Shown here: piece after piece, positions 27,445 through 60,205 of the stretch
Numbering within the stretch: position 1 is the first letter of the stretch
Layout of the letters: every line of letters starts with the position of its first letter
From: Escherichia phage saus132
Sequence record: NC_047884.1
Reading direction: 5' to 3' (one strand)
DNA: 64,000 nt
Translations under genes and position numbers: made by a program
The notes under the pieces: generated by a model
Told to the model about the DNA's origin: nothing
What the model saw: only the letters and a program-made list of their open reading frames with translations
Database searches by the model: none

Positions 27445-27798
27445 TTAGTCGTAGCACCACCATAACCCACGCTTACGTAGGTCATGATCGCAGTTGTAGT
27501 CGTAATTTTCCGGATCTTGCATAACACGATGCAGTTCCATACGGTTTCCTTGACGAACCATTTTGTTAGAGTGCCACTTGACGGCTTGGCTGATAGAATC
27601 CCAGTTGTAACCATCCTTCTTCTCATATTTAATGATATCGTCTTGTAATTCCTTTTCAACTTCTTCTCTAGTATACGGGACTGCTGGCTCCTTCAAAGCA
27701 AAGAAACGACGATTGTACCCAAGAGTAAAGTTGAATTTAGAACGATGTGCATCACGCCAGTGACGATTTCCCGATTGTTTACGATATGTACGGCTCAT
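27445..27798 (-). CDS. hypothetical protein
   Basis: 117-aa ORF. Confidence 0.5.
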   Translation of the reverse strand: MSRTYRKQSGNRHWRDAHRSKFNFTLGYNRRFFALKEPAVPYTREEVEKELQDDIIKYEKKDGYNWDSISQAVKWHSNKMVRQGNRMELHRVMQDPENYDYNCDHDLRKRGLWWCYD

Positions 27799-27857
27799 AA
27801 TACCTCCATTAAGTCTGTTAAAGTAACTTAATGTGGTCTAACTTCAAAATATAACAT

Positions 27858-28043
27858 TTAGTAGTCTCCGTTATCGTTGTATACTACCCCACTGCTAGGG
27901 AGTTCTTCTGCTGTCACATTCTCGAATTCTATAGAACTTCTATGATTTCTAGCCAGTTCGATTGCTTCTTCCGCAGTTTCCGCAACAACAATAGCTGTAC
28001 CACCTAACCACAGGCCGCTATAGTTCACTTTAAAAATTTTCAT
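27858..28043 (-). CDS. hypothetical small protein
   Basis: 61-aa ORF. Confidence 0.4.
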   Translation of the reverse strand: MKIFKVNYSGLWLGGTAIVVAETAEEAIELARNHRSSIEFENVTAEELPSSGVVYNDNGDY

Positions 28044-28107
28044 TTCGAAAATCCTATATACAAGAAAACCCCAGACTACGTATTCAATAGCTGGGGTTTA
28101 TTATTAA

Positions 28108-28407
28108 TTAGATAATTTCGACAATATCCTGAGTTACAAAACCGTCGAATTCATCAGAGATACCACCTGTAAAGGTGATGCCCATAATCATTGCATCCAT
28201 CTTTTTAATCTCCGAGATTTTCATGCCTGCTTTACTATTCTTATAGTATTTGCGAGGATTCCCACACATCCAACAAGAACAGATGCAAGGAGTGGTAGTG
28301 ATAATGCCTAACCTCTTAGGGCTTTCTTCATGTGGGAAGACTGTCCAATACTTCTTGCGATTGTTTTTCACACGTTGCCGGTGATGGCGTCTTAATGCTC
28401 GATCCAC
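28108..28407 (-). CDS. small radical-SAM-like protein (NrdG-like glycyl-radical activase candidate)
   Basis: CICSCWMC gives C-x3-C-x2-C; GITFTGG resembles the NrdG ISLSGG region; only 99 aa, so tentative. Confidence 0.4.
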   Translation of the reverse strand: MDRALRRHHRQRVKNNRKKYWTVFPHEESPKRLGIITTTPCICSCWMCGNPRKYYKNSKAGMKISEIKKMDAMIMGITFTGGISDEFDGFVTQDIVEII

Positions 28408-28488
28408 ACATTTCTCCTAAAACTTGGGAGATAAATGGAGTTTGCTCGACTACCTTGCGTAGTTGGGAGAAATCGTATCCAAACCCCA

Positions 28489-28857
28489 TTATATCGCCTG
28501 AGTAAATGTACGACTAATAACGTCGTTCTGTTGTTCACGCGTCAATGCGTTAAATCGAACAGCATAGCCAGAGACACGGATGGTCAACTGAGGATATTTT
28601 TCAGGATGTTTCTGTGCATCCAAAAGCTGATCACGGCTTAACACATTGACATTTAGGTGCTGACCACCCTCGACTTGAGGAACCACTTCTACATCTACAA
28701 TGCGGAAGGCCTCAGGGTCAAAATGAGGTGTGATACCCTCTAGATCTTCAACTAGAACCTTTTGTTTAAGTTCACCATCTTTAGAATATAGCTGAATGAT
28801 CTGGTTATCATGAACAAGGTTAATTACGCCAGACTTAAGACTTTGATATGCTTTCAT
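28489..28857 (-). CDS. grcA: autonomous glycyl radical cofactor GrcA/YfiD homolog
   Basis: 122 aa; C-terminal [32 protein letters not shown] matches recalled E. coli GrcA including the RVSGY glycyl-radical motif. Confidence 0.75.
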
Positions 28858-29040
28858 TAGATCTCCCTGATGTTAGAATTTGGCTCAGCTTTTTGTTAAC
28901 CCAGAAGCAAGATAAAAACTGGGAGGCAGGCTGTTTATTAAGTGAATACCCGATAATCGCTCGTAGTCCGGCTTGTGGATTGATAGTCCCATTCAGTTTA
29001 ATAAACACAGAGATCTGGCACAAAGGCCTGATCTTATCTT

Positions 29041-29116
29041 TGGTAGTTAGTAGTGGAGTTGAACCACTGTAGTCGCTCCGTATGAAGGAGGTGCATAACC
29101 ACTCTGCCAACTAACT
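29041..29116 (-). tRNA. tRNA-Met-type (anticodon CAU; could be Met, fMet or Ile2)
   Basis: 76 nt with encoded CCA; acceptor AGTTAGT/ACTAACT; T-arm AGTGG-TTCAACT-CCACT; anticodon loop TTCATAC. Confidence 0.6.
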
Positions 29117-29122
29117 ATAATT

Positions 29123-29198
29123 TGGTACTCCGACTTGGGATCGAACCAAGATTTGACGATTATCGGTCGCCTGTTCTAACCTGTTGAACTATCAGAGC
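29123..29198 (-). tRNA. tRNA-Ile (anticodon GAU), non-canonical C33
   Basis: encoded CCA; T-arm CTTGG-TTCGATC-CCAAG; anticodon loop CCGATAA; acceptor with G-U pairs. Confidence 0.5.
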
Positions 29199-29199
29199 A

Positions 29200-29493
29200 T
29201 TACATCATTTCATCCAAGTAAGAAGTATACTGGTATTTAGCTTCCCCAGTTTTATCTACTTCGACTTCTGTTCTAGGTACTTTTCGTACCAGACCGTGAA
29301 TCATCTTGTACTGAATAGACTTAGATGGTTCGTGATCTTTTGGAAAGACTTGTTTAACCGTTACTACTTTGAAGCCTTCACGAGGTGTTAATACAACAAC
29401 TTGATCACCTTCTTTAATTTTCCAGGACTCAGGAAATTCATAAGTGTAGCGTTGACCACCAGTTTGGAACACGACAGAAAGATAACGTTTCAT
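29200..29493 (-). CDS. hypothetical protein
   Basis: 97-aa ORF; promoter leader with GAGAGGG RBS. Confidence 0.5.
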   Translation of the reverse strand: MKRYLSVVFQTGGQRYTYEFPESWKIKEGDQVVVLTPREGFKVVTVKQVFPKDHEPSKSIQYKMIHGLVRKVPRTEVEVDKTGEAKYQYTSYLDEMM

Positions 29494-29567
29494 TTGGTTT
29501 CCCTCTCATTAATTTATATAAATATTATAACAAGAAATAAGAGAGAAGGCAAATGAATTTTTAAATT

Positions 29568-29642
29568 TGGTGCTCCCACCAGGAGTCGAACCCAGTTCAG
29601 ATGCTTACAAGGCAACTGCATCGCCAGCAATGCTTTAGGAGC
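29568..29642 (-). tRNA. tRNA-Thr (anticodon UGU)
   Basis: encoded CCA; acceptor GCTCCTA/TGGGAGC; anticodon loop CTTGTAA; T-loop TTCGACT. Confidence 0.6.
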
Positions 29643-29652
29643 AATAAACCCG

Positions 29653-29817
29653 TCATTTCAACGGGATTTCTTTTTCAAATACAGGAGACTTATCAGACAT
29701 TACTGTCATCGCCAACTGCTGAAGAAACTCGAAGGATAGTGCTAGGCGTTCGTCACCAAGCTCAATCTCTACACGTTTCTTTTGTTTGTCAACCTTTAGT
29801 TTCAGGTTATCAGCCAT
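29653..29817 (-). CDS. hypothetical small protein (54 aa)
   Basis: ATG ORF between tRNA genes; below track size cutoff. Confidence 0.3.
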   Translation of the reverse strand: MADNLKLKVDKQKKRVEIELGDERLALSFEFLQQLAMTVMSDKSPVFEKEIPLK

Positions 29818-30031
29818 CTTCGGATTCTAGTTGCTCGGCTACTGCTAGCCAGTCTGGTAAAAGAAACTTAGTACGAAACTCTTCATAAGGTTCTTCTGGA
29901 TAAAAGCTAAAATTTGCTTTCTCATCATTCAAGATAACAGAGCCGTCAGTTTGTTCGTATGCTAGGTATGTTTCTCCAATAACAATAACTCGTTTATTGT
30001 TACTTTTATCACGAAACTCAAAAACGTGCAT
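29810..30031 (-). CDS. hypothetical protein
   Basis: 73-aa ORF. Confidence 0.45.
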   Translation of the reverse strand: MHVFEFRDKSNNKRVIVIGETYLAYEQTDGSVILNDEKANFSFYPEEPYEEFRTKFLLPDWLAVAEQLESEDG

Positions 30032-30048
30032 AAATGTTTCCTTAAAGT

Positions 30049-30124
30049 TGGAGCGGCTAGAGGGAATCGAACCCTACTCAGCGGGGCTTGGAAGGCCTGC
30101 GGCACAACCCGTGTGCTTAACCGC
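30049..30124 (-). tRNA. tRNA-like gene, isotype uncertain (possibly Gly UCC); weak anticodon stem
   Basis: 76 nt; good acceptor and T-arm (TTCGATT) with CCA; only a 3-bp anticodon stem around loop CTTCCAA. Confidence 0.35.
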
Positions 30125-30132
30125 TTATTGTT

Positions 30133-30210
30133 TGGCAGGGGATATTGGATTTGAACCAATGATCTCGACTTCAAAGGCCGAAGCTTTAGGCCAAGCTAAG
30201 CTAATCCCCA
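30133..30210 (-). tRNA. tRNA-Gln (anticodon UUG)
   Basis: T-arm ATTGG-TTCAAAT-CCAAT; anticodon arm TCGGC-CTTTGAA-GTCGA; CCA encoded. Confidence 0.55.
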
Positions 30211-30216
30211 ATTGTT

Positions 30217-30292
30217 TGGCTGGAATGTCTAGGATCGAACTAGAAACCTACGGTGTCAGAAACCGTCGCTCTGCCAGTTGAGCTACACTCCA
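30217..30292 (-). tRNA. tRNA-Gln (anticodon CUG)
   Basis: T-arm TCTAG-TTCGATC-CTAGA; anticodon arm ACGGT-TTCTGAC-ACCGT; D-stem GCTC/GAGC. Confidence 0.6.
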
Positions 30293-30300
30293 ATAATTTT

Positions 30301-30501
30301 TTATTCTACAGGAACCGTGGCGATTGGATCAGGCTCTTCTAGACGTTTACCATTATGATCAACACGGATAATGCCACAACCTTCACAGATTACAACAGCA
30401 CCATAGCCTTCTTTAACTTCGGCTTCTGTAATCAGACCAGAAAGATCACCAGTATCTCTTCCCCACATATCAATAGAGCATTCTTTGCAGAAATCAGCCA
30501 T
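30301..30501 (-). CDS. small Cys-containing protein
   Basis: 66-aa ORF; CKEC...CEGC. Confidence 0.45.
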   Translation of the reverse strand: MADFCKECSIDMWGRDTGDLSGLITEAEVKEGYGAVVICEGCGIIRVDHNGKRLEEPDPIATVPVE

Positions 30502-30525
30502 ATTTTATTTCCTGTTTAAGTTAAT

Positions 30526-30600
30526 TGGTGCATCCTCAGGGAATCGAACCCCGATCGTAAAGTTCGTAGCTTTACATTCTTTCCGTTGAAATAAGGACGC
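30526..30600 (-). tRNA. tRNA-Arg (anticodon ACG)
   Basis: T-loop TTCGATT; anticodon arm TAAAG-CTACGAA-CTTTA; CCA encoded. Confidence 0.55.
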
Positions 30601-30606
30601 AATATT

Positions 30607-30683
30607 TGGGGTGGCTAGTGGAATTCGAATCCACATAGGCCTGATTCACAATCAGGATCATTAACCAATTATGATATAGCCAC
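30607..30683 (-). tRNA. tRNA-His (anticodon GUG)
   Basis: perfect acceptor GTGGCTA/TAGCCAC; T-arm GTGGA-TTCGAAT-TCCAC; anticodon loop TTGTGAA; discriminator C. Confidence 0.65.
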
Positions 30684-31063
30684 AATTGAATACTATTAGG
30701 GGATGATCAGTCCTCCATTTGGCCGTCTAAGGTACCAAAGTTAGTCATTCTGCGCACAGGTTTTTCTCCTGATTCTTTCTTGCGAATGCTCTCTAGTAAT
30801 ACTCAATTGTGGCGGCTCTCCGAAACTCTTCTACTCTAGCCTTAGCAGCTTACTCCCGAACGCATGTCGGGAAAGTCTTACTAAGAACATCAAATAGCAC
30901 CGTTACACTTTGAGCCATTGAATATCAAGAAGCAGAAGGACTTGAACCTTCATGAGATAGACCATTTATCTCAGCCTCGTTTTCGGGTATCTTATGAGGA
31001 GTGGATGTTCCCCTTACGCCCTTTAGGAAGCCCCGTCTACCGATTCCGGCATACTTCAAGATT

Positions 31064-31153
31064 TGGCAGAAGATAATGGAGTCGAACCATCACCGTATCA
31101 CTACAGCGGGCCGGTTTTCAAGACCGGTTACGTACCACTACGTCCTATCTTCT
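31064..31153 (-). tRNA. tRNA-Ser (anticodon UGA), long variable arm
   Basis: 90 nt; anticodon arm CCGGT-CTTGAAA-ACCGG; about 19-nt variable arm; perfect acceptor. Confidence 0.65.
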
Positions 31154-31380
31154 AGTATTTGTTCTACTTCTTTTCGAAGATCTTCTGGATTATCATGATA
31201 GGTTGTTTGCCATACATAAATAACTCCAGCATCACATGCTTTATCAAATATTTCTCGCTCAGGAAGTTTCATGCCCATTGCGTACTTGATATGAAACTCT
31301 AAAGCTTGCTTACTAGGGAATGTATGACGCAAGAAAAACTTATCATTAGCTAAATCCAACATCATAATCTTGACTTTCAT
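31138..31380 (-). CDS. hypothetical protein
   Basis: 80-aa ORF; 3' end overlaps tRNA-Ser 5' end. Confidence 0.45.
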   Translation of the reverse strand: MKVKIMMLDLANDKFFLRHTFPSKQALEFHIKYAMGMKLPEREIFDKACDAGVIYVWQTTYHDNPEDLRKEVEQILEDRT

Positions 31381-31401
31381 TTATATTCCCTATTAGTTGT
31401 T

Positions 31402-31477
31402 TGGTGGAAGAAGAGAGATTCGAACTCTCAAGCCTGCTTTAACAAGTCAGCCACTTTCCAAGCGGTTTTCGTCACCT
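31402..31477 (-). tRNA. tRNA-like remnant (canonical 3' half, 5' half does not pair)
   Basis: CCA, acceptor 3' strand and T-arm GAGAG-TTCGAAT-CTCTC present; Asn-like loop TTGTTAA with weak stem; no complementary 5' acceptor strand. Confidence 0.3.
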
Positions 31478-31653
31478 AATCGATTTGCTCTTCCGTAGAT
31501 CTCAGGATTAAATCATAAACTTCATTAGCGGATACTGGAAGTATGAGATTATACATCTTTTGGTCATACCTCTGACCATACTCTATAAACACATACTCTT
31601 TAGTCAATGTATTAACAGCTAACCAGATATCAGTTATAGGAGTTTTCATCATG
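31476..31653 (-). CDS. hypothetical small protein (59 aa)
   Basis: ATG ORF overlapping the 5' side of the tRNA-like element. Confidence 0.3.
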
Positions 31654-31668
31654 AGTTAATCCAATGTT

Positions 31669-31749
31669 TGGTAGGGATGGAGGGACTCGAACCCACACCC
31701 GAAGACTAGAACCTAAATCTAGCGCGTCTGCCAATTTCGCCACATCCCC
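31669..31749 (-). tRNA. tRNA-Leu (anticodon UAG)
   Basis: anticodon arm CTAGA-TTTAGGT-TCTAG; 9-nt variable region; CCA encoded. Confidence 0.5.
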
Positions 31750-31756
31750 ATTTTAT

Positions 31757-31975
31757 TTAGTTAGAAATAAATAGTAACCCTGCAACAATGGAACCTATGC
31801 CACTGAATACCATTATCAGCATAGCTTCTAAGCTGATAAAGCGGACGTTATATGGAGCGCCCCAAGAATAATCAGTAAAGAAAGTTTTCTTTTCTTTAGC
31901 TAAATCTTTAATAGTTCTAAAATAGATAGCTAGTGCTAAAGCTGCAAGAACTACAGAGGCTGCTAAGAATACCAT
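31757..31975 (-). CDS. small membrane protein
   Basis: 72 aa, two TM segments. Confidence 0.45.
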   Translation of the reverse strand: MVFLAASVVLAALALAIYFRTIKDLAKEKKTFFTDYSWGAPYNVRFISLEAMLIMVFSGIGSIVAGLLFISN

Positions 31976-31994
31976 ATTATTTCCTTAATTTGTT

Positions 31995-32070
31995 TGGTGG
32001 AGTCACTCAGAATTGAACTGAGTTCCACTGCTTGCAAGGCAGTAAGTTTAACCAAATAACCTATGACCCC
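31995..32070 (-). tRNA. tRNA-Ala (anticodon UGC)
   Basis: G3-U70 wobble in acceptor (GGGGTCA/TGACTCC); anticodon arm ACTGC-CTTGCAA-GCAGT; CCA encoded. Confidence 0.65.
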
Positions 32071-32075
32071 GAATT

Positions 32076-32154
32076 TGGTGGAGAATAACGGAATCGAACC
32101 GTTCTGATGTCCTCGGTGCAAGCGAGGTGTCCACTCCATGCAGACCCATTCCCC
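32076..32154 (-). tRNA. tRNA-Ala (anticodon UGC), second divergent copy
   Basis: G3-U70 in acceptor (GGGGAAT/ATTCTCC); anticodon arm CCTCG-CTTGCAC-CGAGG; 7-nt variable loop. Confidence 0.55.
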
Positions 32155-32509
32155 AAAATCTTTAAGTTTACTAAGGCTATTAGCTCGGTGTGCGTATTAC
32201 CCTCAGACATTATCCAGTAGAGGATAACCGCTCTTCACAAACCCGATACACTATTCAGTTGCCGCTGAATCTAGTGGACTAATCTAGAACTTCTCCCGAG
32301 TCGTAGGGATCGTGCTTTTTGGCAGCCAGTCCTAGGTCGAGCTAATACCTTAGTGAACTAAATTGATGGATATCAGACTAATTTTGCTACGGCGTTTATC
32401 CTGAGGATCTCTTTTTCGGTAGCTCTGCTAGTGTAGACGTCATACACCTGATATCTAGGCAGCTATTTTCACATCAATTTATATAAATATTATAACAAGA
32501 AATTAAGCA

Positions 32510-32863
32510 TTAAGCAAGTACATTTTTAGCGATTTCTTGTAGTTCCTTAACGTCGCTAACGAAAAGGTAATCAGAGCTTCCAGAGTGCATACTCTGCATA
32601 ACCACACCACCATCCGGTGCATCTTCTTTCAAAGTAATACCTAACCAGAACTTGGCAAAACTAGGTGTTACCTCACCTTGACTTGCCTTGAACACATCGC
32701 CTTCTGTGATCTCTTGACCAGTGGAGAGTCCCATGTATGGTACGTTCAGATCAATATCTTTGTAGAACTCAGCTAGATCTTGCTCGAAATCCCAACCTTT
32801 AGAGATAGCGAACTCCATTGTTACATGACCGAAATAGCCTTGAACCTTGCTTGATAATTGCAT
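32510..32863 (-). CDS. hypothetical protein
   Basis: start moved to ATG after AAGGA RBS (track start is TTG). Confidence 0.5.
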   Translation of the reverse strand: MQLSSKVQGYFGHVTMEFAISKGWDFEQDLAEFYKDIDLNVPYMGLSTGQEITEGDVFKASQGEVTPSFAKFWLGITLKEDAPDGGVVMQSMHSGSSDYLFVSDVKELQEIAKNVLA

Positions 32864-32888
32864 TTGCAATTCCTTATTTTGAGTTAAT

Positions 32889-32962
32889 TGGTACTCGGTG
32901 ATAGAATCGAACTATCGCAACCGCCGTGTAAAGACGGGGTTCTCCCATTAAACTAACCGAGC
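32889..32962 (-). tRNA. tRNA-Val (anticodon UAC)
   Basis: T-arm GATAG-TTCGATT-CTATC; anticodon loop TTTACAC. Confidence 0.55.
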
Positions 32963-33095
32963 AAAAGACGTCCTATAATATAGGCTTCAACTACAAATTC
33001 ACAGAAACCTGCTAAAAACATACCTATTGTAAAATCGGCAGAGAATACATAGGAATCTTTTATTTTCTGCTTCATTAAGTAAAACCAGATAGTCA

Positions 33096-33413
33096 TTAAA
33101 ATCTCTCCATTCTAAAGCCAATGAAGTAAGGTGCATTACATGGAACATGCTTAAGATCTTTAAGAGTAATTTTACGTCCTAAGCGTCGTTCCATACAAGT
33201 GAAACATAGAACAATATCTTTGGGCTGCTCTTTTCTTATCTGATCCCAGACCCAATCTTCAACCATACACATTTCATGGTATTGTTCACAGTCTCGACAA
33301 TAGTGACACTGATGTTCTGGTACTTTTTGATTTTTAATACACAGTTCAGTAAAGCGTTTTCCGGCTCTGCCAGACATTTCTGATATTGTTTCTAGAACTT
33401 TGTTAATATTCAT
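33096..33413 (-). CDS. Cys-rich zinc-finger-like protein
   Basis: 105 aa; HQCHYCRDCEQYHEMC and CFTC motifs. Confidence 0.5.
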   Translation of the reverse strand: MNINKVLETISEMSGRAGKRFTELCIKNQKVPEHQCHYCRDCEQYHEMCMVEDWVWDQIRKEQPKDIVLCFTCMERRLGRKITLKDLKHVPCNAPYFIGFRMERF

Positions 33414-33430
33414 AACAAATTCCTTTAAAT

Positions 33431-33509
33431 TGGTAGACCGCCTGGGACTCGAACCCAGAACCTTCCGGTTAAAAGCCGGGTGCTGCTAAACCAATTGAGC
33501 TAGCGATCT
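33431..33509 (-). tRNA. tRNA-Lys (anticodon UUU)
   Basis: T-arm CTGGG-TTCGAGT-CCCAG; anticodon loop CTTTTAA. Confidence 0.55.
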
Positions 33510-33511
33510 AT

Positions 33512-33676
33512 TTAGTACATATATACTTCTTTAATAGAGTAGACTTTTAAGTAAGGATGATTAATACCAAATTCCGCCATCACTTCGTTTTCATCTTTAC
33601 CGTAATGGGCTAGTGGATACTTCTTACGATCTTTGCTAGAACGTAGATCACTTACTTTTAAGCGAAATAATTTCAT
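33512..33676 (-). CDS. hypothetical small protein (54 aa)
   Basis: ATG ORF between two tRNA genes. Confidence 0.3.
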   Translation of the reverse strand: MKLFRLKVSDLRSSKDRKKYPLAHYGKDENEVMAEFGINHPYLKVYSIKEVYMY

Positions 33677-33697
33677 TTCGAAATCCTTCTATTAAAT

Positions 33698-33775
33698 TGG
33701 AAGCGGGTGTAGGAATCGAACCTACCTCTTTCTAGCTTATGAGACTAGCGATCTCTACCAGAGATCTAACCCGCA
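33698..33775 (-). tRNA. tRNA-Met-type (anticodon CAU), mismatched 1-72 pair
   Basis: anticodon arm CTAGT-CTCATAA-GCTAG; T-loop TTCGATT; U1/U72 mismatch. Confidence 0.55.
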
Positions 33776-33781
33776 ATTGTT

Positions 33782-33859
33782 TGGTCTCCGTGGGAGGATT
33801 TGAACCCCCGACCCTACCGCCCCAAACGGAACGCTCTGGCCAAACTGAGCTACACGGAG
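33782..33859 (-). tRNA. tRNA-Pro (anticodon UGG)
   Basis: perfect acceptor CTCCGTG/CACGGAG; anticodon loop TTTGGGG; D-stem GCTC/GAGC. Confidence 0.6.
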
Positions 33860-34336
33860 AATATTATCTTTTTAACCATAGTAAGGTTATACCTAACATG
33901 GTAAATCCAGTACCCAGCCCAATACTTTTTTCTATGAAATTGAAGGTATCAGTATTGACTGCGGTAATTAGTATAGGTATAGACCATAGTACCATGAATA
34001 CTTGAGCTATCTTATATTTCACTTTGCTTTCCTTCTTAACATTTTATAAGATATATTATACAGAGAATTAAGCAAAGTAGCAAATGAATTTTTAATAAAT
34101 TTACTTATTGCGTAGGCCACCTGGAGGGTTCAAGCCCCACGGCTGACAAAGAAGTTTGCGAGACTTCTCTTAAACGCCAGAATAGACCCGCCGATCTATC
34201 GGAACCTACTCAATAAGTAAACTTTCATTTACTTACACCTACCTGGTCGGGAGGATTTTCAGCGACTAGAACCGGCCGGAAACTCATCGCCTTGTTTATC
34301 TAGGAGTCCGTTCTCTAGGAAGCAGAAACCTAAATT

Positions 34337-34410
34337 TGGTGCGGTCGGAGGGAATCGAACCCTCAACTTCTGGTTGGCAACCAAAAATTATACCTTTTAA
34401 CTACGAACGC
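34337..34410 (-). tRNA. tRNA-Gly (anticodon GCC)
   Basis: T-arm GAGGG-TTCGATT-CCCTC; anticodon arm TTTGG-TTGCCAA-CCAGA. Confidence 0.6.
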
Positions 34411-34608
34411 ATAATAAGTCAATCTAGGCAGGACTTGAACCTGCTATCACTTGTGCGGATTTACGAGAACCATTCTTTCACTCGAATCGAACGAGCTTCT
34501 ACCCTCGGCAAGCTGGTGTCCCCTCTCCACCACGCTAGAATGTTTGATAAAGAGTCCGGTGTAGCAATCCGTAAGGGTGCACCTACTGTAGCCTTTACTC
34601 TTTAAATT

Positions 34609-34684
34609 TGGTACACCCACTAGGACTTGAACCTAGAACCCTCCGCTTAAGAGGCGGTAGCTCTAACCATTGAGCTATGGATGT
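34609..34684 (-). tRNA. tRNA-Lys (anticodon CUU)
   Basis: T-arm CTAGG-TTCAAGT-CCTAG; anticodon loop CTCTTAA; D-stem GCTC/GAGC. Confidence 0.55.
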
Positions 34685-34690
34685 ATTATT

Positions 34691-34767
34691 TGGCGCGACC
34701 GATGGGATTCGAACCCACATTCTCTCCCGTGACAGGGGAGTACCATTACCAAGCCAGCCCCGATCGC
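34691..34767 (-). tRNA. tRNA-Asp (anticodon GUC)
   Basis: anticodon arm CTCCC-CTGTCAC-GGGAG; discriminator G; CCA encoded. Confidence 0.6.
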
Positions 34768-34776
34768 ATAATTTGT

Positions 34777-34962
34777 TTACTCAGCTTTGAGTTTTTCGAT
34801 AGCTTCCTCAACCTCTTTTAGAGCTTCACGACGTGCATTCTGTTGCTGCATATCTTGAATTAATGTCAGTTTTTGGTTTTCAATTTCTTGATCCCAAACC
34901 TTAATATTATTAATCAGACTATCACGATCAGCTTCTAGTCGAGCAATTGCACGAGTTGTCAT
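34777..34962 (-). CDS. hypothetical coiled-coil protein
   Basis: 61-aa ORF. Confidence 0.4.
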   Translation of the reverse strand: MTTRAIARLEADRDSLINNIKVWDQEIENQKLTLIQDMQQQNARREALKEVEEAIEKLKAE

Positions 34963-35065
34963 ATCTATTTCCTCAGTTGTTAATGAAAAATGGTATCTGT
35001 GACTGAATTCGATATCAGCAATGATAGCTGGTTGGCTACCGGTTTACTTAACTCTACACAGAATT

Positions 35066-35143
35066 TGGCGGTTCCTGCTGGATTCGAACCAGCAACCCTC
35101 AACTTAACAAGATGCCGCTCTAACCAATTAGAGCTAAGGAACC
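35066..35143 (-). tRNA. tRNA-Asn (anticodon GUU), weak anticodon stem
   Basis: perfect acceptor GGTTCCT/AGGAACC; T-arm GCTGG-TTCGAAT-CCAGC; loop TTGTTAA; two stem mismatches. Confidence 0.5.
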
Positions 35144-35638
35144 ATATAAGTCAGAACTAGAGTTAATACGTTCTAGATATTTACTAAGATCCCTAGAATT
35201 TATACTAAACCACTCATGTTCTTTTAAGTCTTTGAAATATTGGTGAATTTGTTTTTCACCTTTTCGTTTGTCAAACCAAAACGACCAATGCTCTAGTTTA
35301 TAGTCCCTATAAGGACTATAAGTTTGATACTGAGCTAATCTCTCTTTTGGATTTTGACTCATACCTATTTTATACTGGTTTTTCCATGCAGGATTACTGA
35401 TACAGTATACAAAACCTTCAGAAATAGGAAGCTTATTTTCCTGTTTAAACTTTATAAAGGAAAGTGCGGCAAGTTTCCTCGAATACAGAGTATTTGTATT
35501 CTTTTTGGTATTACCACTGGTTCCTGAAAGATTTATATACTCTTCCATAAATCTTTGGATTAGTTCTGTGGTTATGTAGAAAGGCTCATTAGTAACAATG
35601 CCTTTCTCTACCAAGCTGTCAAAAACTTTTGTATGCAC
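35120..35638 (-). CDS. T5orf172/GIY-YIG-like domain protein
   Basis: 172 aa; GFVYCISNP...YKIGMSQNPKERLAQY resembles the T5orf172 core. Confidence 0.5.
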   Translation of the reverse strand: MHTKVFDSLVEKGIVTNEPFYITTELIQRFMEEYINLSGTSGNTKKNTNTLYSRKLAALSFIKFKQENKLPISEGFVYCISNPAWKNQYKIGMSQNPKERLAQYQTYSPYRDYKLEHWSFWFDKRKGEKQIHQYFKDLKEHEWFSINSRDLSKYLERINSSSDLYGSLALIG

Positions 35639-35659
35639 TACTTCTTTCCTTTAGTAATT

Positions 35660-35734
35660 TGGAGCATCCTGTTGGAATTGAACCAACCTAGACGATTTTG
35701 CAGACCGTCACCTAAGCCACTCGGACAAGGATGC
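35660..35734 (-). tRNA. tRNA-Cys (anticodon GCA)
   Basis: perfect acceptor GCATCCT/AGGATGC; anticodon loop CTGCAAA; T-loop TTCAATT. Confidence 0.65.
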
Positions 35735-35737
35735 AAA

Positions 35738-36010
35738 TTAATCTACTTCACACATATCATCATAGCCACAAGTTGGGCATTCCCAATGACATTCGTCATG
35801 CTCACCGCATTGAGCACATTCATAAATCTTTGGCTTTTCAACTTCTTCTAGATTAATAAATTCTAGATCATCGAAGTTACCAATGGATCTGGCATAGTAA
35901 CCATCGCCTGCGTCATAACCTGATTTACCACACTCACACATCTTAAACTCACGCAGATGTGTGAAGATATGTTCAGAGCCACAACACTTAAATTTAACTA
36001 ACTTTTTCAT
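35738..36010 (-). CDS. zinc-ribbon protein
   Basis: 90 aa; several CxxC pairs. Confidence 0.5.
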   Translation of the reverse strand: MKKLVKFKCCGSEHIFTHLREFKMCECGKSGYDAGDGYYARSIGNFDDLEFINLEEVEKPKIYECAQCGEHDECHWECPTCGYDDMCEVD

Positions 36011-36059
36011 TTGCTTCTCCAGTTCAATTTATGTAATAATTATACAGAACTTTAAGCGG

Positions 36060-36347
36060 TTAAGCAACTACATTTTTCAGAAATATGATGCCTTTCTTTT
36101 TCTTCTTATACTTCCACGTTAACGGGTTCTGTCGATTATGAACGCTTGAGATCTTTGTCTCGTCAAAGTTCTTCAATACCATGTAATCACAGGCCAACTG
36201 TTCTAGTGGAATGTGATCTCCGTCAAAAGCGTAAACGTAAGGCTGTTGACTGGCACGATAATGATAGACTTTGTTAATTCTGCGTTTCAGTGACTTATCC
36301 GCACAGTAAATAAAGAAGTTTTCAGGATGCATCAGCATCTCCTTCAA
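36060..36347 (-). CDS. hypothetical protein
   Basis: 95-aa ORF; track start is TTG, a likelier ATG lies 9 nt in. Confidence 0.45.
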   Translation of the reverse strand: MKEMLMHPENFFIYCADKSLKRRINKVYHYRASQQPYVYAFDGDHIPLEQLACDYMVLKNFDETKISSVHNRQNPLTWKYKKKKKGIIFLKNVVA

Positions 36348-36349
36348 AT

Positions 36350-36424
36350 TGGTGCACCCTGTTCGAATTGAACGAACCTCTCAAGCTCTTCAGGCAAGCG
36401 CTAATCCATCTCAGCTAAAGGTGC
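36350..36424 (-). tRNA. tRNA-Phe (anticodon GAA), anticodon stem with two U-U mismatches
   Basis: T-arm GTTCG-TTCAATT-CGAAC; loop CTGAAGA; CCA encoded. Confidence 0.45.
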
Positions 36425-36430
36425 AAATAT

Positions 36431-36507
36431 TGGCAAACCTACTAGGACTCGAACCTAGACCGTACGGTTTTGGAGACCGACATGCTGTCCAGTAACACTC
36501 TAGGAAT
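36431..36507 (-). tRNA. tRNA-Trp (anticodon CCA)
   Basis: T-arm CTAGG-TTCGAGT-CCTAG; anticodon arm TCGGT-CTCCAAA-ACCGT; two U-U mismatches in acceptor. Confidence 0.5.
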
Positions 36508-36515
36508 GCAGAAAT

Positions 36516-36592
36516 TGGCGTCCTGTGCGGGGATCGAACCCGCAAATCCTACCTTGAAAGGGTAGTGACTTTACCAGTTTGTCTAACAGGAC
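36516..36592 (-). tRNA. tRNA-Glu (anticodon UUC)
   Basis: perfect acceptor; T-arm GCGGG-TTCGATC-CCCGC; anticodon arm CTACC-CTTTCAA-GGTAG. Confidence 0.65.
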
Positions 36593-36599
36593 TTAAATT

Positions 36600-36690
36600 T
36601 GGTGTTGGATGATGGAGTCGAACCACCCGAGACCCTTCCGAGTCGGCAGATTTACAGTCTACTTCGCTACCTCTACGATACTAATCCAAC
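36600..36690 (-). tRNA. tRNA-Tyr (anticodon GUA), long variable arm
   Basis: 91 nt; perfect acceptor GTTGGAT/ATCCAAC; anticodon loop CTGTAAA; about 18-nt variable arm. Confidence 0.6.
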
Positions 36691-36879
36691 ATATTTGAAT
36701 GAAAAGTAAGTCGGTTAAACTCAAGGTGGAATATTTCAGGATTTCCTGACTTTACCCCTAAAAGCAACTCGCTTAATTACTTCTCATTCAGATATGTTTC
36801 CAAATTAGATAAATATTATATCAAGTTTTAAGGCACTGAGCAAGTCAAATTTTAAAGAACTTGCTCAGTGCTGTATCAG

Positions 36880-37173
36880 TTAATCAAATGAAGGAGTGAC
36901 TTTCAAAGTGAATGGAAGTTCGAATACCTCTTCACCTTCATCAGTAACAGTGACTACTCGACCCTCTAGCTTATTCATGCTGATTTCAACATCAGCCGTA
37001 GCATCAGGAGCCATACCAGCCTCAATACATTGAGCTTTGATCTCTGGAAGAAGTTCTACATTGTAGAAATAAAGCCACTCGATCTCACCTTCCCAACCAC
37101 CCCAGGATTTACATACTGAGCTTTCAATACCAGTTGCTGCAAAACGTTTTAACATTCTGATTCCTCTCATCAA
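36880..37173 (-). CDS. hypothetical protein
   Basis: 97-aa ORF. Confidence 0.45.
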   Translation of the reverse strand: MMRGIRMLKRFAATGIESSVCKSWGGWEGEIEWLYFYNVELLPEIKAQCIEAGMAPDATADVEISMNKLEGRVVTVTDEGEEVFELPFTLKVTPSFD

Positions 37174-37244
37174 CTTATATAACTATTATAGCAGAAATCT
37201 TAAGCAAAAAGCAAGTACATTTTTAAAATTTCTGCTTGGAGGAG

Positions 37245-37517
37245 TTAAACTCCTGATTCTTCAGCCAGATCAAGCCCAACCAATGTGATTGCCATAATAG
37301 CCGCGCCATGTTCTTTCTCTCCTAGCTCTTTGGCTTGAGTGAGAATATTGAGGAATTGCTTTTGAAAATCTGCAACTTCTTCTGTCATGCCTGCTTCAGC
37401 AATAATTCCTTTCAGCATAAAGCGTTGTGCCGTAATTTCAGGATTAGCCATTTGTTTTCTCCAGTTATTTAGAATGTAAGCCAAACTTAGGATCATAGCG
37501 ATCGTAAGTAGTACCAT
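37245..37517 (-). CDS. hypothetical protein
   Basis: 90-aa ORF. Confidence 0.45.
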   Translation of the reverse strand: MVLLTIAMILSLAYILNNWRKQMANPEITAQRFMLKGIIAEAGMTEEVADFQKQFLNILTQAKELGEKEHGAAIMAITLVGLDLAEESGV

Positions 37518-37602
37518 TAGTTGAAGCCTTGATGCTATGAAAACGACAATACATAAATTTACGCAGTGCTTTCTTAATAGCTTTCATTTTATTTCCTTAA
37601 TT

Positions 37603-37679
37603 TGGTAGGGGTGGTGGGATTCGAACCCACAAAACCTGAATTTTAAGTCCAGTACCTATGCCAATTCGATTACACCCCC
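37603..37679 (-). tRNA. tRNA-Leu (anticodon UAA), short variable loop
   Basis: T-arm GTGGG-TTCGAAT-CCCAC; anticodon loop CTTAAAA; 77 nt. Confidence 0.45.
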
Positions 37680-37687
37680 ATGTAATC

Positions 37688-38041
37688 TTAGCGAATCTCT
37701 AAACCCTGGAAATATCGAGGGAATGGAGAGCCAACTTCAAAATTGATGCCCCAGTTAAGTTCAACGAGTTCAGATTTATTAAGATCTAGGCCATTACCTT
37801 CAAAGATATAGCCGTAAACCGCAGGGAACATAGCTGCTAGATCTTCCATATCGGAATGAGCATTGTGTTCTTCACGTAACTGCTCAAACTCTTCAAAGAA
37901 CTTTTCTAGGAAGAACTCAGGTACGATGAACGTTACCACATCAGTAGAATCATCAGTACGATACACCGTAGCTTGGAACAAGCCAACACCTAAAAGGTTT
38001 ATTGCCGGAGTAGTAAAAATATCCATCTTAACCTCGCTCAA
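37688..38041 (-). CDS. hypothetical protein
   Basis: 117-aa ORF. Confidence 0.5.
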   Translation of the reverse strand: MSEVKMDIFTTPAINLLGVGLFQATVYRTDDSTDVVTFIVPEFFLEKFFEEFEQLREEHNAHSDMEDLAAMFPAVYGYIFEGNGLDLNKSELVELNWGINFEVGSPFPRYFQGLEIR

Positions 38042-38213
38042 TGTCTAGAGAAATACCACATTCAGGATTAATACCAGAACCATTACAATATGTACAAACG
38101 TATGTATTATACCGTGTATCACCGGGTTCAGCATCGTTCCACTCACCTACTCCGAAGCATTTTGGGCAGGCACACTCTTCTAGCTCTTGCTTGAGTTCTT
38201 GAAATTTGGACAT
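38028..38213 (-). CDS. small zinc-finger protein
   Basis: 61 aa; CPKCFGVGEW and CTYCNGSG motifs. Confidence 0.4.
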   Translation of the reverse strand: MSKFQELKQELEECACPKCFGVGEWNDAEPGDTRYNTYVCTYCNGSGINPECGISLDIERG

Positions 38214-38221
38214 ATAGTCTC

Positions 38222-38410
38222 CTAGTTAATTACTTTTGAGGCTTCTAAAGCATTGACGTAGTAAACGTCTTCTACTTTATACATATAGTCTACTACTTTG
38301 TCCATAGCATGTAGTTCAGATGTAGCCTTTACTAGTCTGTACCCTTGTTTAAACTCGTCCGAATGTTCTCTATCTTGTGCAAATTTAACAGAAACTATGA
38401 ATAATTCCAT
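38222..38410 (-). CDS. hypothetical small protein
   Basis: 62-aa ORF. Confidence 0.4.
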   Translation of the reverse strand: MELFIVSVKFAQDREHSDEFKQGYRLVKATSELHAMDKVVDYMYKVEDVYYVNALEASKVIN

Positions 38411-38429
38411 TAGTTGTCCTTATTTAATT

Positions 38430-38507
38430 TGGTGGCTCCCGGAGGATTCGAACCTACCTACCTTTCGCTTATGAGGCGACGGCTCATACCAAATGAGCTT
38501 GAGAACC
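38430..38507 (-). tRNA. tRNA-Met-type (anticodon CAU), third CAU copy
   Basis: T-loop TTCGAAT; anticodon arm GTCGC-CTCATAA-GCGAA; CCA encoded. Confidence 0.5.
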
Positions 38508-38512
38508 AAATT

Positions 38513-38606
38513 TGGAGGAAGATGCCAGATTCGAACTGGCACACCGTGTCTCCACAGCTACTGGCTGTTTAGCAAACAGCTCCCTTACCTTTAGGGTTAA
38601 TCTTCC
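38513..38606 (-). tRNA. tRNA-Ser (anticodon GCU), long variable arm
   Basis: 94 nt; perfect acceptor GGAAGAT/ATCTTCC; anticodon arm GCTGT-TTGCTAA-ACAGC. Confidence 0.6.
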
Positions 38607-59518: not shown

Positions 59519-60205
59519 ATGGTACGAAGGAAGTTAGATAAAGACACTATCAATAAAGATTTAGAGCCTAGAAGAATTAAGCTAATAAGTGAGTATTCTG
59601 GAATCCTTAATAAAGGCACATTCATATGTAGTGTAGGTCATACATGGGAAGCTACTGTTAATAATGTAAGGAATAGCAAATCTGGCTGTCCAATATGCGC
59701 AGGTACTTTTAAACTTACTAAAGATTCGGTAAATGAAGGGTTACGTAGTAGGGGTATTACTCTTATTGGAGAGTATAAAAATAATGCTACTAAAACTCTT
59801 TTTGAATGTGAGCATGGGCATAGGTGGGAAGCCACAGTAGGCAATGTAAAGAATAAAAATTCTGGGTGTCCTGTGTGCGATACTGATTGGAATACCCCTG
59901 GTTTTATATACATTATGTGTAGTAGTATGGGAACTAAAATAGGAATTAGTATCTCTCCTGAAAGACGGTGGAAAGAGATAGTTAAAAGCTCCAATATACT
60001 AGATTTATATATTTTTGGTGTCTATTCAATAGATTCTGGTACCAAATCTAAAAGTAGGTCTATCGAGAAACAGACTCATGAATATTTTTCAGAATATAGA
60101 TTAAAGTATACAGGATTTGCTGGATGTACTGAATTCTTTGATATATCTCCCATAGCCGTAGAAAAGCACTTAATTAATAATGGGTGTATAAAGGTAGAAA
60201 AATAA
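59519..60205 (+). CDS. T5orf172-domain protein with two zinc-ribbon repeats
   Basis: two repeats GH(T/R)WEATV.NV.N..SGCP.C, then GFIYIMCSSMGTKIGISISPERRWKEI core. Confidence 0.55.
   Translation: MVRRKLDKDTINKDLEPRRIKLISEYSGILNKGTFICSVGHTWEATVNNVRNSKSGCPICAGTFKLTKDSVNEGLRSRGITLIGEYKNNATKTLFECEHGHRWEATVGNVKNKNSGCPVCDTDWNTPGFIYIMCSSMGTKIGISISPERRWKEIVKSSNILDLYIFGVYSIDSGTKSKSRSIEKQTHEYFSEYRLKYTGFAGCTEFFDISPIAVEKHLINNGCIKVEK

What the first reader, a model, noticed from the sequence alone, without database searches (positions are those of the whole stretch)
28108..28857. GrcA-like spare glycyl-radical protein next to a small radical-SAM-like ORF
28489-28857 encodes a protein whose C-terminal half closely matches E. 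coli GrcA/YfiD, including RVSGY. The adjacent 99-aa ORF carries a C-x3-C-x2-C motif and an NrdG-like GG motif. A phage carrying its own glycyl-radical repair module, 29 kb from nrdD, is unusual and may protect host pyruvate formate-lyase or phage NrdD during anaerobic or microaerobic infection.
Basis: partly seen in the sequence, partly recalled or inferred. Interest (0 to 1): 0.7.

Follow-up and report, generated by a model that had tools for sequence, protein, structure and literature searches.

The report
Phage GrcA spare part; neighbour unrelated
This T5-like phage carries a small "spare part" protein that can replace the oxygen-damaged radical-bearing tail of the host's pyruvate formate-lyase, a gene already proven in phage T4 and present in over 1,500 phage genomes. 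The small gene next to it is not a radical-SAM activating enzyme.

Summary
The window is the left 64 kb of a T5-like phage (Epseptimavirus; identical to MF431736.1). ORF 28489-28857 (minus strand, 122 aa) is a real GrcA/YfiD-type autonomous glycyl-radical cofactor. It hits Pfam Gly_radical at 4.7e-18 and E. coli GrcA (PDB 6OWR) at 2.4e-29. Its last 61 residues are 80% identical to GrcA and 77% to PflB. It has the PFL-type loop RVSG97YAV.

It is a full-length homologue (51% identity, E 7e-38, same phrog_1209) of T4 vs.6, which T4's RefSeq record annotates as GrcA. T4's spare-part protein Y06I was shown in 2001 to be activated by PFL activase and to rescue oxygen-cleaved PFL. I equate Y06I with vs.6 from memory. 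tblastn finds this gene in 1,582 phage records, many already annotated as GrcA or PFL, so it is neither unusual nor new.

The adjacent 99-aa ORF (28108-28407, minus strand) is real and conserved, but it is not radical SAM. The C-x3-C-x2-C reading needs C41, which is Cys in only 13 of 41 family representatives. The "GG" lies in an indel absent from 17 of 20 close homologues. All relatives are short. No Radical_SAM hit was found, and hhalign against NrdG gives 0.1% probability. The ORF never sits beside GrcA outside GrcA-carrying T5-like phages. The phage encodes no activase, so host PflA must activate the GrcA homologue.

The parts
28489..28857 (-). CDS of 122 aa: phage GrcA-type autonomous glycyl-radical cofactor, a homologue of T4 vs.6. 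Residues 1-~55 form a phage-type N-terminal half. Residues ~61-122 form a PFL-type glycyl radical domain.
   Evidence: Pfam PF01228 at 4.7e-18. phrog_1209 full length at 7.5e-47. PDB 6OWR GrcA at 2.4e-29 and PflB at 1.7e-26. 51% identity, E 7e-38, full length to T4 vs.6. Annotated 'pyruvate formate-lyase' in MF431736.1 and Seafire.
28564..28578 (-). Codons for R94-V-S-G97-Y98. G97 (GGC, 28567-28569) is the predicted radical glycine, equivalent to G734 of PflB.
   Evidence: Read directly from the sequence, the alignments, and the position computed.
28863..28868 (-). Shine-Dalgarno-like GGGAG, 5 nt upstream of the GrcA ATG.
   Evidence: Sequence. An RBS is annotated at the equivalent position in phage Seafire.
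28108..28407 (-). CDS of 99 aa with a GTG start (T5 ORF053/T5.055 family, phrog_4499). It has an arginine/histidine-rich N-terminal helix, an invariant TP-x-C-S-C-x-M-C-G-N-P-R knuckle and a variable acidic tail. It is not radical SAM, and no link to GrcA was found beyond adjacency.
   Evidence: phrog_4499 at 2.7e-39. 88 close homologues. 2,142 50%-identity clusters at E<=0.001; the 150 best listed are 69-183 aa. Column counts. No Pfam, PDB or NrdG relationship.
28264..28287 (-). Only C43, C45 and C48 are invariant in the family.
28162..28182 (-). It lies in a lineage-specific insertion within the acidic tail.
   Evidence: Columns are gaps in 17/20 close homologues and unconserved in the 41-member set.
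28414..28418 (-). Shine-Dalgarno AGGAG, 6 nt upstream of the GTG start of the 99-aa ORF.
   Evidence: Sequence. An RBS is annotated at the equivalent position in Seafire.
28058..28099 (-). Intrinsic-terminator-like hairpin followed by a U-tract, just after the 99-aa ORF. GrcA and the 99-aa ORF may therefore share a transcript that ends here.
   Evidence: RNA fold -17.5 kcal/mol, z = -3.5, 0/200 shuffles as stable. The simple scanner missed it.

Best explanation
The 122-aa ORF is the T5-like version of the phage GrcA 'spare part' protein.

Mechanism. Steps 1-3 are established for E. coli YfiD and T4 Y06I. They are inferred here by homology.
1. Active pyruvate formate-lyase carries a glycyl radical at G734, and traces of O2 cut the chain at that residue.
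2. Host PFL activase (PflA, a radical-SAM enzyme) installs a glycyl radical on the RVSGYAV loop of the small protein, here G97.
3. The small protein's C-terminal domain docks into cleaved PFL in place of the lost C-terminus and restores pyruvate -> acetyl-CoA + formate.

Why a phage would carry it (inferred). T5-type infection shuts down and degrades the host genome, so the cell cannot replace PflB or its own GrcA. A phage-encoded copy keeps fermentative ATP and acetyl-CoA supply going in microaerobic, gut-like conditions. It also keeps up the supply of formate, the known reductant of the E. coli class III ribonucleotide reductase; the phage encodes a homologue.

The phage has no activase of its own, so both its GrcA and its NrdD must depend on host PflA and NrdG.

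The adjacent 99-aa ORF is a separate gene. It belongs to a large family of short phage and mobile-element proteins with a basic Arg/His helix and an invariant C-x-C-x2-C knuckle. It is most likely a small metal-binding (His + Cys3, probably zinc) nucleic-acid-binding protein of unknown role. Its position next to GrcA reflects lineage synteny rather than a shared function.
For: GrcA identity:
- Searches give Gly_radical, phrog_1209, GrcA/GrcA2/GrcA3 models and 6OWR.
- The last 61 residues are 49/61 identical to E. coli GrcA and 47/61 to PflB.
- The protein is full-length homologous to T4 vs.6, which RefSeq annotates as GrcA and which shares phrog_1209.
- T4 Y06I and E. coli YfiD are the two biochemically validated spare parts (PMC8683613; PMC13450708).
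- PflA accepts the RVSGYAV peptide but not RVCGYLG (PMC13450708). The window GrcA has RVSGYAV and the window NrdD has RVCGYLG.
- The gene is conserved in 1,582 phage records.

No phage activase: tblastn with NrdG and PflA finds nothing in 113 kb, and none is annotated.

Small ORF is not radical SAM.

The two genes are independent:
- GrcA occurs without the small ORF in T4, RB32, PX29 and Providencia phage PR1.
- The small ORF occurs without GrcA in 12 other places held as 14 loci, including two T5-like relatives that keep the small-ORF/orf61/DUF7295 synteny.

Formate link: Aeromonas phage PX29 has nrdD-nrdG-vs.6-nrdC-nrdH as one block. Formate is the reductant of E. coli class III RNR (Mulliez et al. 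1995, listed in PMC13450708).
Against: - No experiment exists on the T5-like protein.
- It scores below NCBI's equivalog cutoff for GrcA (118 vs 170 bits), because its N-terminal half differs from the bacterial one.
- Its C-terminal domain has 12 substitutions relative to E. coli GrcA, whereas T4's is almost identical.
- The N-terminal half matters for activation and for binding cleaved PFL in YfiD, so divergence there could change the partner or the efficiency.
- The benefit to the phage and the formate-to-NrdD link are inferences. I did not measure grcA/nrdD co-occurrence across phages.
- For the small ORF, metal binding and nucleic-acid binding are inferred from sequence only. The AlphaFold model is of low confidence (pLDDT 67.6).
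- GrcA and the small ORF may be co-transcribed: the gap is 81 nt and the terminator follows the second gene. A lineage-specific functional link is therefore not strictly excluded.
- Flanks of only 2-5 kb were examined for co-occurrence.
Confidence: 0.85

Rival explanations
1. Two-gene phage 'glycyl-radical repair module'. The 99-aa ORF would be a miniature radical-SAM activase, or an Fe-S helper, that installs the radical on the phage GrcA.
For: - A literal C41-x3-C45-x2-C48 and a GG 32 residues downstream are present.
- There are very weak hits to radical-SAM or Fe-S models: HxsC at E 0.014 for the window protein; 2/41 members hit HxsC, 1/41 NrdG3 at E 0.03, and 2/41 ferredoxin-type models.
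- The ORF is adjacent to GrcA and possibly co-transcribed with it.
Against: - C41 is Cys in only 13/41 family representatives, and the GG is missing from 17/20 close homologues.
- The 150 best family representatives are 69-183 aa (median of the 41 aligned: 87). That is too short for even the smallest activase I examined, 166 aa.
- No Radical_SAM or Fer4 Pfam hit was found in 41 members.
- A profile search against PDB finds nothing.
- hhalign against NrdG gives probability 0.1% and does not align the Cys motifs.
- The AlphaFold model is all-helical with no beta/alpha core.
- The weak hits score 14 bits against cutoffs above 260, and their number is about what 41 searches at E<=0.1 would give by chance.
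- The family never sits beside GrcA outside GrcA-carrying T5-like phages.
Confidence: 0.03
2. The GrcA homologue is a spare part for the phage's own anaerobic ribonucleotide reductase NrdD rather than for host PFL.
For: - The phage encodes NrdD.
- In Aeromonas phage PX29 the homologue sits inside the nrdD-nrdG-nrdC-nrdH block and overlaps nrdG.
- All glycyl radical enzymes suffer the same O2 cleavage (PMC8683613).
Against: - There is no detectable similarity between the two window proteins (E = 17).
- The domain is 77% identical to the PflB C-terminus.
- The Gly loops differ: RVSGYAV against RVCGYLG.
- Activases discriminate between these loops (PMC13450708).
- Spare parts are known only for formate-lyases.
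Confidence: 0.04
3. The protein is a decoy or modulator rather than a repair part. By soaking up PflA activity or binding PFL, it would redirect or dampen host fermentation for the phage's benefit.
For: The N-terminal half differs from the bacterial one. In YfiD that half governs binding to cleaved PFL and activation efficiency.
Against: T4 Y06I restores PFL activity in vitro. The catalytic-site-forming C-terminal domain is under strong conservation in 1,582 phage records, which a mere decoy would not need.
Confidence: 0.06
4. It is a non-functional fragment of a captured host pflB or grcA 3' end.
For: The C-terminal domain is very host-like.
Against: The ORF is intact with an RBS. It is conserved full-length between T5-like and T4-like phages at 51% identity, including a phage-specific N-terminus beginning MKAYQ. 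It is present in 1,582 phage records.
Confidence: 0.02

Closest known systems
Bacteriophage T4 vs.6 (annotated as GrcA in RefSeq; I equate it from memory with Y06I, the biochemically characterised T4 autonomous glycyl radical cofactor)
   Same: Full-length homologue: 51% identity over 122/120 aa, E 7e-38. Same PHROG (phrog_1209). Same MKAYQ start, same RVSGYAV loop and the same small standalone architecture. Y06I is activated by PFL activase and rescues O2-cleaved PFL.
   Different: It sits in a siphovirus of the Demerecviridae at the edge of the tRNA cluster, not in the T4 regB-denV region. The N-terminal half is only loosely similar. The C-terminal domain carries 12 differences from E. coli GrcA over 61 residues, whereas T4's differs at about 2. 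Unlike T4, this phage has no NrdG of its own.
E. coli GrcA/YfiD (PDB 6OWR; TIGR04365)
   Same: The C-terminal glycyl radical domain is 80% identical (49/61), and the radical glycine and flanking residues are identical.
   Different: The N-terminal ~55 residues do not match the bacterial model. The score of 118 bits is below the equivalog cutoff of 170.
C-terminal glycyl radical domain of pyruvate formate-lyase PflB (PDB 1H16, residues 698-758)
   Same: 77% identical (47/61). Several positions follow PflB rather than GrcA, for example LLDA and TFTQ.
   Different: Only the last ~60 residues of a 759-residue enzyme are represented. GenBank's product name 'pyruvate formate-lyase' for this ORF is therefore misleading.
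Glycyl-radical-enzyme activases NrdG / PflA (radical SAM), compared with the 99-aa ORF
   Same: Only a literal C-x3-C-x2-C string and a downstream GG in this one sequence.
   Different: There is no homology. The motif residues are not conserved in the family. The protein is about half the size of the smallest activase I examined and is predicted all-helical.

Membership tests
[quoted passage not shown] | Small standalone protein (~120-130 aa) whose C-terminal ~60 residues form a PFL-type glycyl radical domain (Pfam PF01228 above the gathering score) | tested here: met
   122 aa. PF01228 scores 66.1 bits against a cutoff of 22.2, covering residues 62-103. 6OWR matches at 2.4e-29.
[quoted passage not shown] | Radical glycine within the PFL-type loop RVSGYAV, the sequence PflA recognises | tested here: met
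   R94-V-S-G97-Y-A-V is present and aligned to the GrcA/PflB loop. Peptide specificity comes from PMC13450708.
[quoted passage not shown] | Reaches NCBIfam's curated equivalog cutoff for bacterial GrcA (TIGR04365), GrcA2 or GrcA3 | tested here: not met
   118.3 bits against 170; 115.6 against 158; 90.1 against 145. Only residues 54-122 match. The shortfall comes from the phage-type N-terminal half, so this protein belongs to the phage (vs.6) branch, not the bacterial equivalog.
[quoted passage not shown] | Full-length homology to the T4 member (vs.6) | tested here: met
   51% identity, E 7e-38, residues 1-122 against 1-120. Both match phrog_1209 end to end.
[quoted passage not shown] | Radical installed by PFL activase, and activity restored to O2-cleaved PFL | not testable with these tools
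   Biochemistry exists only for YfiD and Y06I.
Radical SAM / glycyl-radical-enzyme activase (for the 99-aa ORF) | C-x3-C-x2-C with all three cluster cysteines conserved | tested here: not met
   C41 is Cys in 13/41 representatives and otherwise A, K, T, Q, N, R or H. The invariant set is C43, C45 and C48.
Radical SAM / glycyl-radical-enzyme activase (for the 99-aa ORF) | Radical_SAM domain (PF04055 or related) or a significant match to an activase profile or structure | tested here: not met
   No Pfam hit for the ORF or for any of 41 family members. A PDB profile search returned no radical-SAM chain. hhalign against NrdG gives 0.1%. The best NCBIfam hit scores 14 bits against a cutoff of 268.
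Radical SAM / glycyl-radical-enzyme activase (for the 99-aa ORF) | Conserved glycine-rich SAM-binding motif (GGE/GGD) after beta2 | tested here: not met
   GG81-82 lies in an insertion absent from 17/20 close homologues.
Radical SAM / glycyl-radical-enzyme activase (for the 99-aa ORF) | Partial or full (beta/alpha) TIM-barrel core of at least ~150 residues | tested here: not met
   The 150 best family representatives are 69-183 aa, and the 41 aligned have a median of 87. The AlphaFold model is all-helical, though of low confidence. Foldseek against PDB returned nothing.
Functional two-gene module (GrcA + neighbour) | Co-occurrence or adjacency of the two families beyond one closely related phage lineage | tested here: not met
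   Four loci have GrcA without the small ORF (T4, RB32, PX29, PR1). Fourteen loci (12 distinct places) have the small ORF without GrcA in the 2-5 kb flanks, including T5-like relatives L014 and L023.

The most novel reading that the evidence does not exclude
Two readings remain that the evidence does not exclude.

(a) The T5-like GrcA may matter chiefly because PFL makes formate, the reductant of the E. coli class III ribonucleotide reductase. On this reading the spare part would be an accessory to phage anaerobic dNTP synthesis, in a phage that carries NrdD but no activase. The nrdD-nrdG-vs.6-nrdC-nrdH block in Aeromonas phage PX29 hints at this.

(b) The co-transcribed 99-aa neighbour belongs to an uncharacterised family of more than 2,000 sequence clusters. 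Its members share an Arg/His-rich helix and an invariant C-x-C-x2-C knuckle, and their function in phages and mobile elements is unknown.
Probability: 0.15. Interest if true: 0.4.

Novelty: already known. Interest (0 to 1): 0.12.

Why it matters
It matters little as a discovery. Phage-encoded GrcA has been known biochemically since 2001 (T4 Y06I). It is routinely annotated, and it occurs in more than 1,500 sequenced phages, including hundreds of T5-like ones.

The useful outcomes here are corrective:
1. The product name 'pyruvate formate-lyase' or '2-ketobutyrate formate-lyase' used in many T5-like records should read 'autonomous glycyl radical cofactor (GrcA-like)'.
2. The neighbouring ORF is not an activase, so the phage depends on host PflA and NrdG.
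3. The reference record under-calls the 99-aa ORF as 38 aa.

The biological rationale is to keep host fermentation and formate supply alive after host shut-off in low-oxygen niches. That idea is reasonable, but it remains untested for any T5-like phage.

Tried and rejected
- Radical-SAM identity of the 99-aa ORF. I tried Pfam, NCBIfam, PHROGs, PDB sequence and profile searches, hhalign against a real NrdG (Aeromonas phage PX29), two AlphaFold models and Foldseek against PDB. All were negative or uninformative.
- A phage-encoded activase elsewhere. The 228-aa ORF right after nrdD is a DUF4379 zinc-finger / T5orf172 protein, not an activase.
- GrcA as a spare part for NrdD. No similarity was found.
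- A frameshifted, longer activase pseudogene. The 99-aa ORF is followed at once by a terminator hairpin and the next gene, so there is no room.
- orf61 (27858-28043) as a HicB-like partner of the small ORF. This was prompted by one bacterial contig where a family member abuts hicB. BLASTP and PDB searches gave no support, and the HicB adjacency did not recur in other contexts.
- Other features in the interval. Rfam and tRNA scans found only the upstream tRNA genes, and promoter-like matches were at chance level.
- Literature. There were no papers on T5 or T5-like phages with glycyl radical or formate-lyase, and none containing the knuckle motif.

Full report
**Source and layout.** A 3-kb stretch around the finding is 100% identical, at the same coordinates, to MF431736.1 (Bacteriophage T5-like chee130_1; Demerecviridae, Markadamsvirinae, Epseptimavirus) and to several Salmonella phages. 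The window is therefore the left 64 kb of a T5-like phage genome: the terminal repeat, early genes, a large tRNA cluster and nucleotide-metabolism genes. Both ORFs in the finding lie on the minus strand. The order on the coding strand is:
- tRNA-Ile, then tRNA-Met
- a 122-aa ORF at 28857->28489
- an 81-nt gap
- a 99-aa ORF at 28407->28108 with a GTG start
- a terminator-like hairpin
- a 61-aa ORF, then a DUF7295 ORF

**The 122-aa ORF is a GrcA-type protein.**
- It matches Pfam Gly_radical at 66.1 bits against a gathering score of 22.2 (E 4.7e-18).
- It matches the solution structure of E. coli GrcA (6OWR) at E 2.4e-29 over residues 50-121, and the C-terminus of PflB (1H16, residues 698-758) at E 1.7e-26.
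- Over the last 61 aligned residues it is 49/61 identical to GrcA and 47/61 to PflB.
- The loop R-V-S-G97-Y-A-V is intact.
- The NCBIfam bacterial GrcA equivalog model matches only residues 54-121 and scores 118 bits, below its cutoff of 170. The N-terminal half is not of the bacterial type.
- That half is of the phage type. The whole protein aligns end to end with T4 vs.6 (51% identity, E 7e-38, both starting MKAYQ). Both proteins, and the homologue from Aeromonas phage PX29, match phrog_1209 over their full length; Providencia phage PR1's longer 163-aa homologue matches it over profile positions 40-121.

[quoted passage not shown] T4's ~14-kDa spare-part protein Y06I is, with E. coli YfiD, one of the two biochemically validated 'spare part' proteins. 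PFL activase installs the glycyl radical on it, and it then complexes with oxygen-cleaved PFL and restores activity (Wagner et al. 2001, as summarised in PMC8683613; also PMC13450708). That Y06I is the vs.6 product rests on my memory of the Swiss-Prot naming; no tool result states it. A tblastn search with the window protein finds homologues in 1,582 phage records, and 1,431 of them cover at least 80% of the protein. These include T5-like, T4-like and jumbo Erwinia phages, and many are annotated 'autonomous glycyl radical cofactor', 'glycine radical' or 'pyruvate formate-lyase'. In T5-like genomes the gene is routinely annotated. The claim that a phage carrying this gene is unusual does not hold.

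**It is not a spare part for NrdD.**
- The phage NrdD (57557-59431, 840 bits to the NrdD equivalog model) shares no detectable similarity with the 122-aa protein (E = 17).
- NrdD has the class III loop RVCGYLG.
- E. coli PflA installs a radical on an RVSGYAV peptide but not on RVCGYLG (PMC13450708).
- The small protein is therefore a PFL-type substrate for host PflA.

**The 99-aa ORF is real, but it is not radical SAM.**
- It has an AGGAG ribosome-binding site 6 nt before a GTG start. Phage Seafire annotates it in full, and it corresponds to T5 ORF053/T5.055 and phrog_4499.
- A profile search of 1.84 billion representative proteins found 2,142 clusters at E<=0.001. The 150 best are 69-183 aa, and the 41 I aligned have a median length of 87 aa.
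- In a 41-member alignment the invariant positions are R12, R17, T39, C43, C45 and C48. H9 (40/41), H8 (37/41), S44, N50, R52 and E66 are nearly invariant.
- C41, which the C-x3-C-x2-C reading requires, is Cys in only 13/41. The real motif is TP-x-C-S-C-W-M-C-G-N-P-R.
- The 'GG' at residues 81-82 sits in an insertion within a variable acidic tail, and 17 of 20 close T5-like homologues lack it.
- No member hits Radical_SAM or any Fe-S Pfam family. Sequence and profile searches of PDB find no radical-SAM chain.
- hhalign of the family profile against a real NrdG gives 0.1% probability and does not align the cysteines.
- AlphaFold with the 41-sequence alignment predicts only helices, at low confidence (pLDDT 67.6). 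Foldseek finds nothing.
- The only hints are 14-bit matches to HxsC, NrdG3 and ferredoxin models in 5 of 41 members. They fall far below the cutoffs, and their number is about what chance predicts for 41 searches at E<=0.1. They reflect a Cys-rich knuckle, not homology.
- My reading, which is inferred, is a small basic protein (residues 1-60 have pI 10.4). A His/Cys3 site would tie an arginine-rich helix to the knuckle, making it most likely a zinc-stabilised nucleic-acid-binding protein.

**The two genes are not a module.** GrcA homologues in T4, RB32, Aeromonas phage PX29 and the Demerecviridae phage Providencia PR1 have no small-ORF homologue nearby. In PR1 a terminator directly follows GrcA. 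Small-ORF homologues occur without GrcA in the flanks in each of these contexts:
- an Erwinia jumbo phage, a Rhizobium phage (inside its tRNA cluster) and a Vibrio phage
- a T4-like metagenomic contig
- a contig carrying a mycobacteriophage-type (L5 gp82) domain, and a phage with an Arc repressor
- bacterial contigs, one next to hsdM and one next to hicB

Two T5-like relatives (Enterobacter phage KKP_3711 and metagenomic contig L023) keep the small-ORF/orf61/DUF7295 trio but have no GrcA within 2-3 kb. The neighbour therefore travels with its downstream genes, not with GrcA. Only the flanks were examined, not whole genomes.

**There is no phage activase.** No activase is annotated. The ORF after nrdD is a DUF4379 / T5orf172 protein. 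Both phage glycyl-radical proteins must therefore be activated by host enzymes. This is an inference.

**Most likely mechanism.**
1. Oxygen cleaves radical-bearing host PFL at G734.
2. Host PflA puts a radical on G97 of the phage protein.
3. The phage protein's C-terminal domain replaces the lost PFL C-terminus.
4. Acetyl-CoA and formate production resumes.

These steps are shown for YfiD and Y06I and inferred here. The rationale for phage carriage is also inferred. After host shut-off the cell cannot resupply PflB or GrcA. PFL also supplies formate, which is the reductant of the E. coli class III RNR (Mulliez 1995, cited in PMC13450708). The PX29 block nrdD-nrdG-vs.6-nrdC-nrdH fits such a link.

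**Verdict.** The homology observation is correct and strong, but the thing observed is a well-known, widely annotated phage gene. Novelty: already known. Interest: low.

Noticed in passing
window 28108-28407 (-) vs MF431736.1 CDS P1301_0049 (28108-28224): The matching GenBank record annotates only a 38-aa ORF here. The conserved gene is 99 aa with a GTG start and an AGGAG RBS, as annotated in phage Seafire and supported by more than 2,000 homologous clusters.
   Followed up: yes
window 57557-59431 (+) and the whole phage (L010): The phage encodes a class III ribonucleotide reductase NrdD (Gly loop RVCGYLG). tblastn finds no NrdG or PflA-like activase anywhere in the 113-kb unique genome. T4-like phages, by contrast, carry nrdG. 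The phage NrdD presumably relies on host NrdG.
   Followed up: partly
window 59519-60205 (+): The 228-aa ORF just downstream of nrdD has two DUF4379 treble-clef zinc fingers, a CapR homology domain and a T5orf172/MUG113 domain. It looks like a mobile, homing-endonuclease-related gene, not an activase.
   Followed up: partly
L009 (Aeromonas phage PX29) 359-3947: The gene order is nrdD-nrdG-vs.6(GrcA-like)-nrdC-nrdH, with vs.6 overlapping the end of nrdG by 23 nt. In this T4-like phage the PFL spare part sits inside the anaerobic nucleotide-reduction block. That fits a PFL-formate-NrdD connection.
   Followed up: no
L017 4001-4722 and L018 978-1699 (bacterial metagenome contigs): A 133-aa member of the small-ORF family sits directly upstream of a HicB antitoxin gene (its last base is the first base of hicB), in the position a HicA toxin usually occupies. 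It has no HicA domain hit. This was seen in two near-identical contigs and did not recur in eight other contexts.
   Followed up: partly
window 27445-28407 (-); L014 1989-2808; L023 3001-3968: The small ORF, a 61-aa ORF (phrog_1235) and a DUF7295 protein with an arginine-rich N-terminus form a trio that stays syntenic in divergent T5-like phages even where GrcA is absent nearby.
   Followed up: partly
L007 (Rhizobium phage RHph_TM30) 2492-2773; window 29041-38606: In a distant Rhizobium phage, as in the T5-like phages, the small-ORF homologue lies within or at the edge of a large tRNA gene cluster interspersed with homing endonucleases. In an Erwinia jumbo phage it lies two small ORFs downstream of an RNA 2'-phosphotransferase gene. 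This may hint at an RNA-related role, or it may be coincidence.
   Followed up: no
L015 5558-5920 (T4 vs.6) vs window 28489-28857: T4's GrcA C-terminal domain is almost identical to E. coli GrcA, with about 2 differences in 60 residues. The T5-like one has 12 differences and mixes GrcA-like and PflB-like residues. This suggests separate or older acquisition, or adaptation to Salmonella and other hosts.
   Followed up: no
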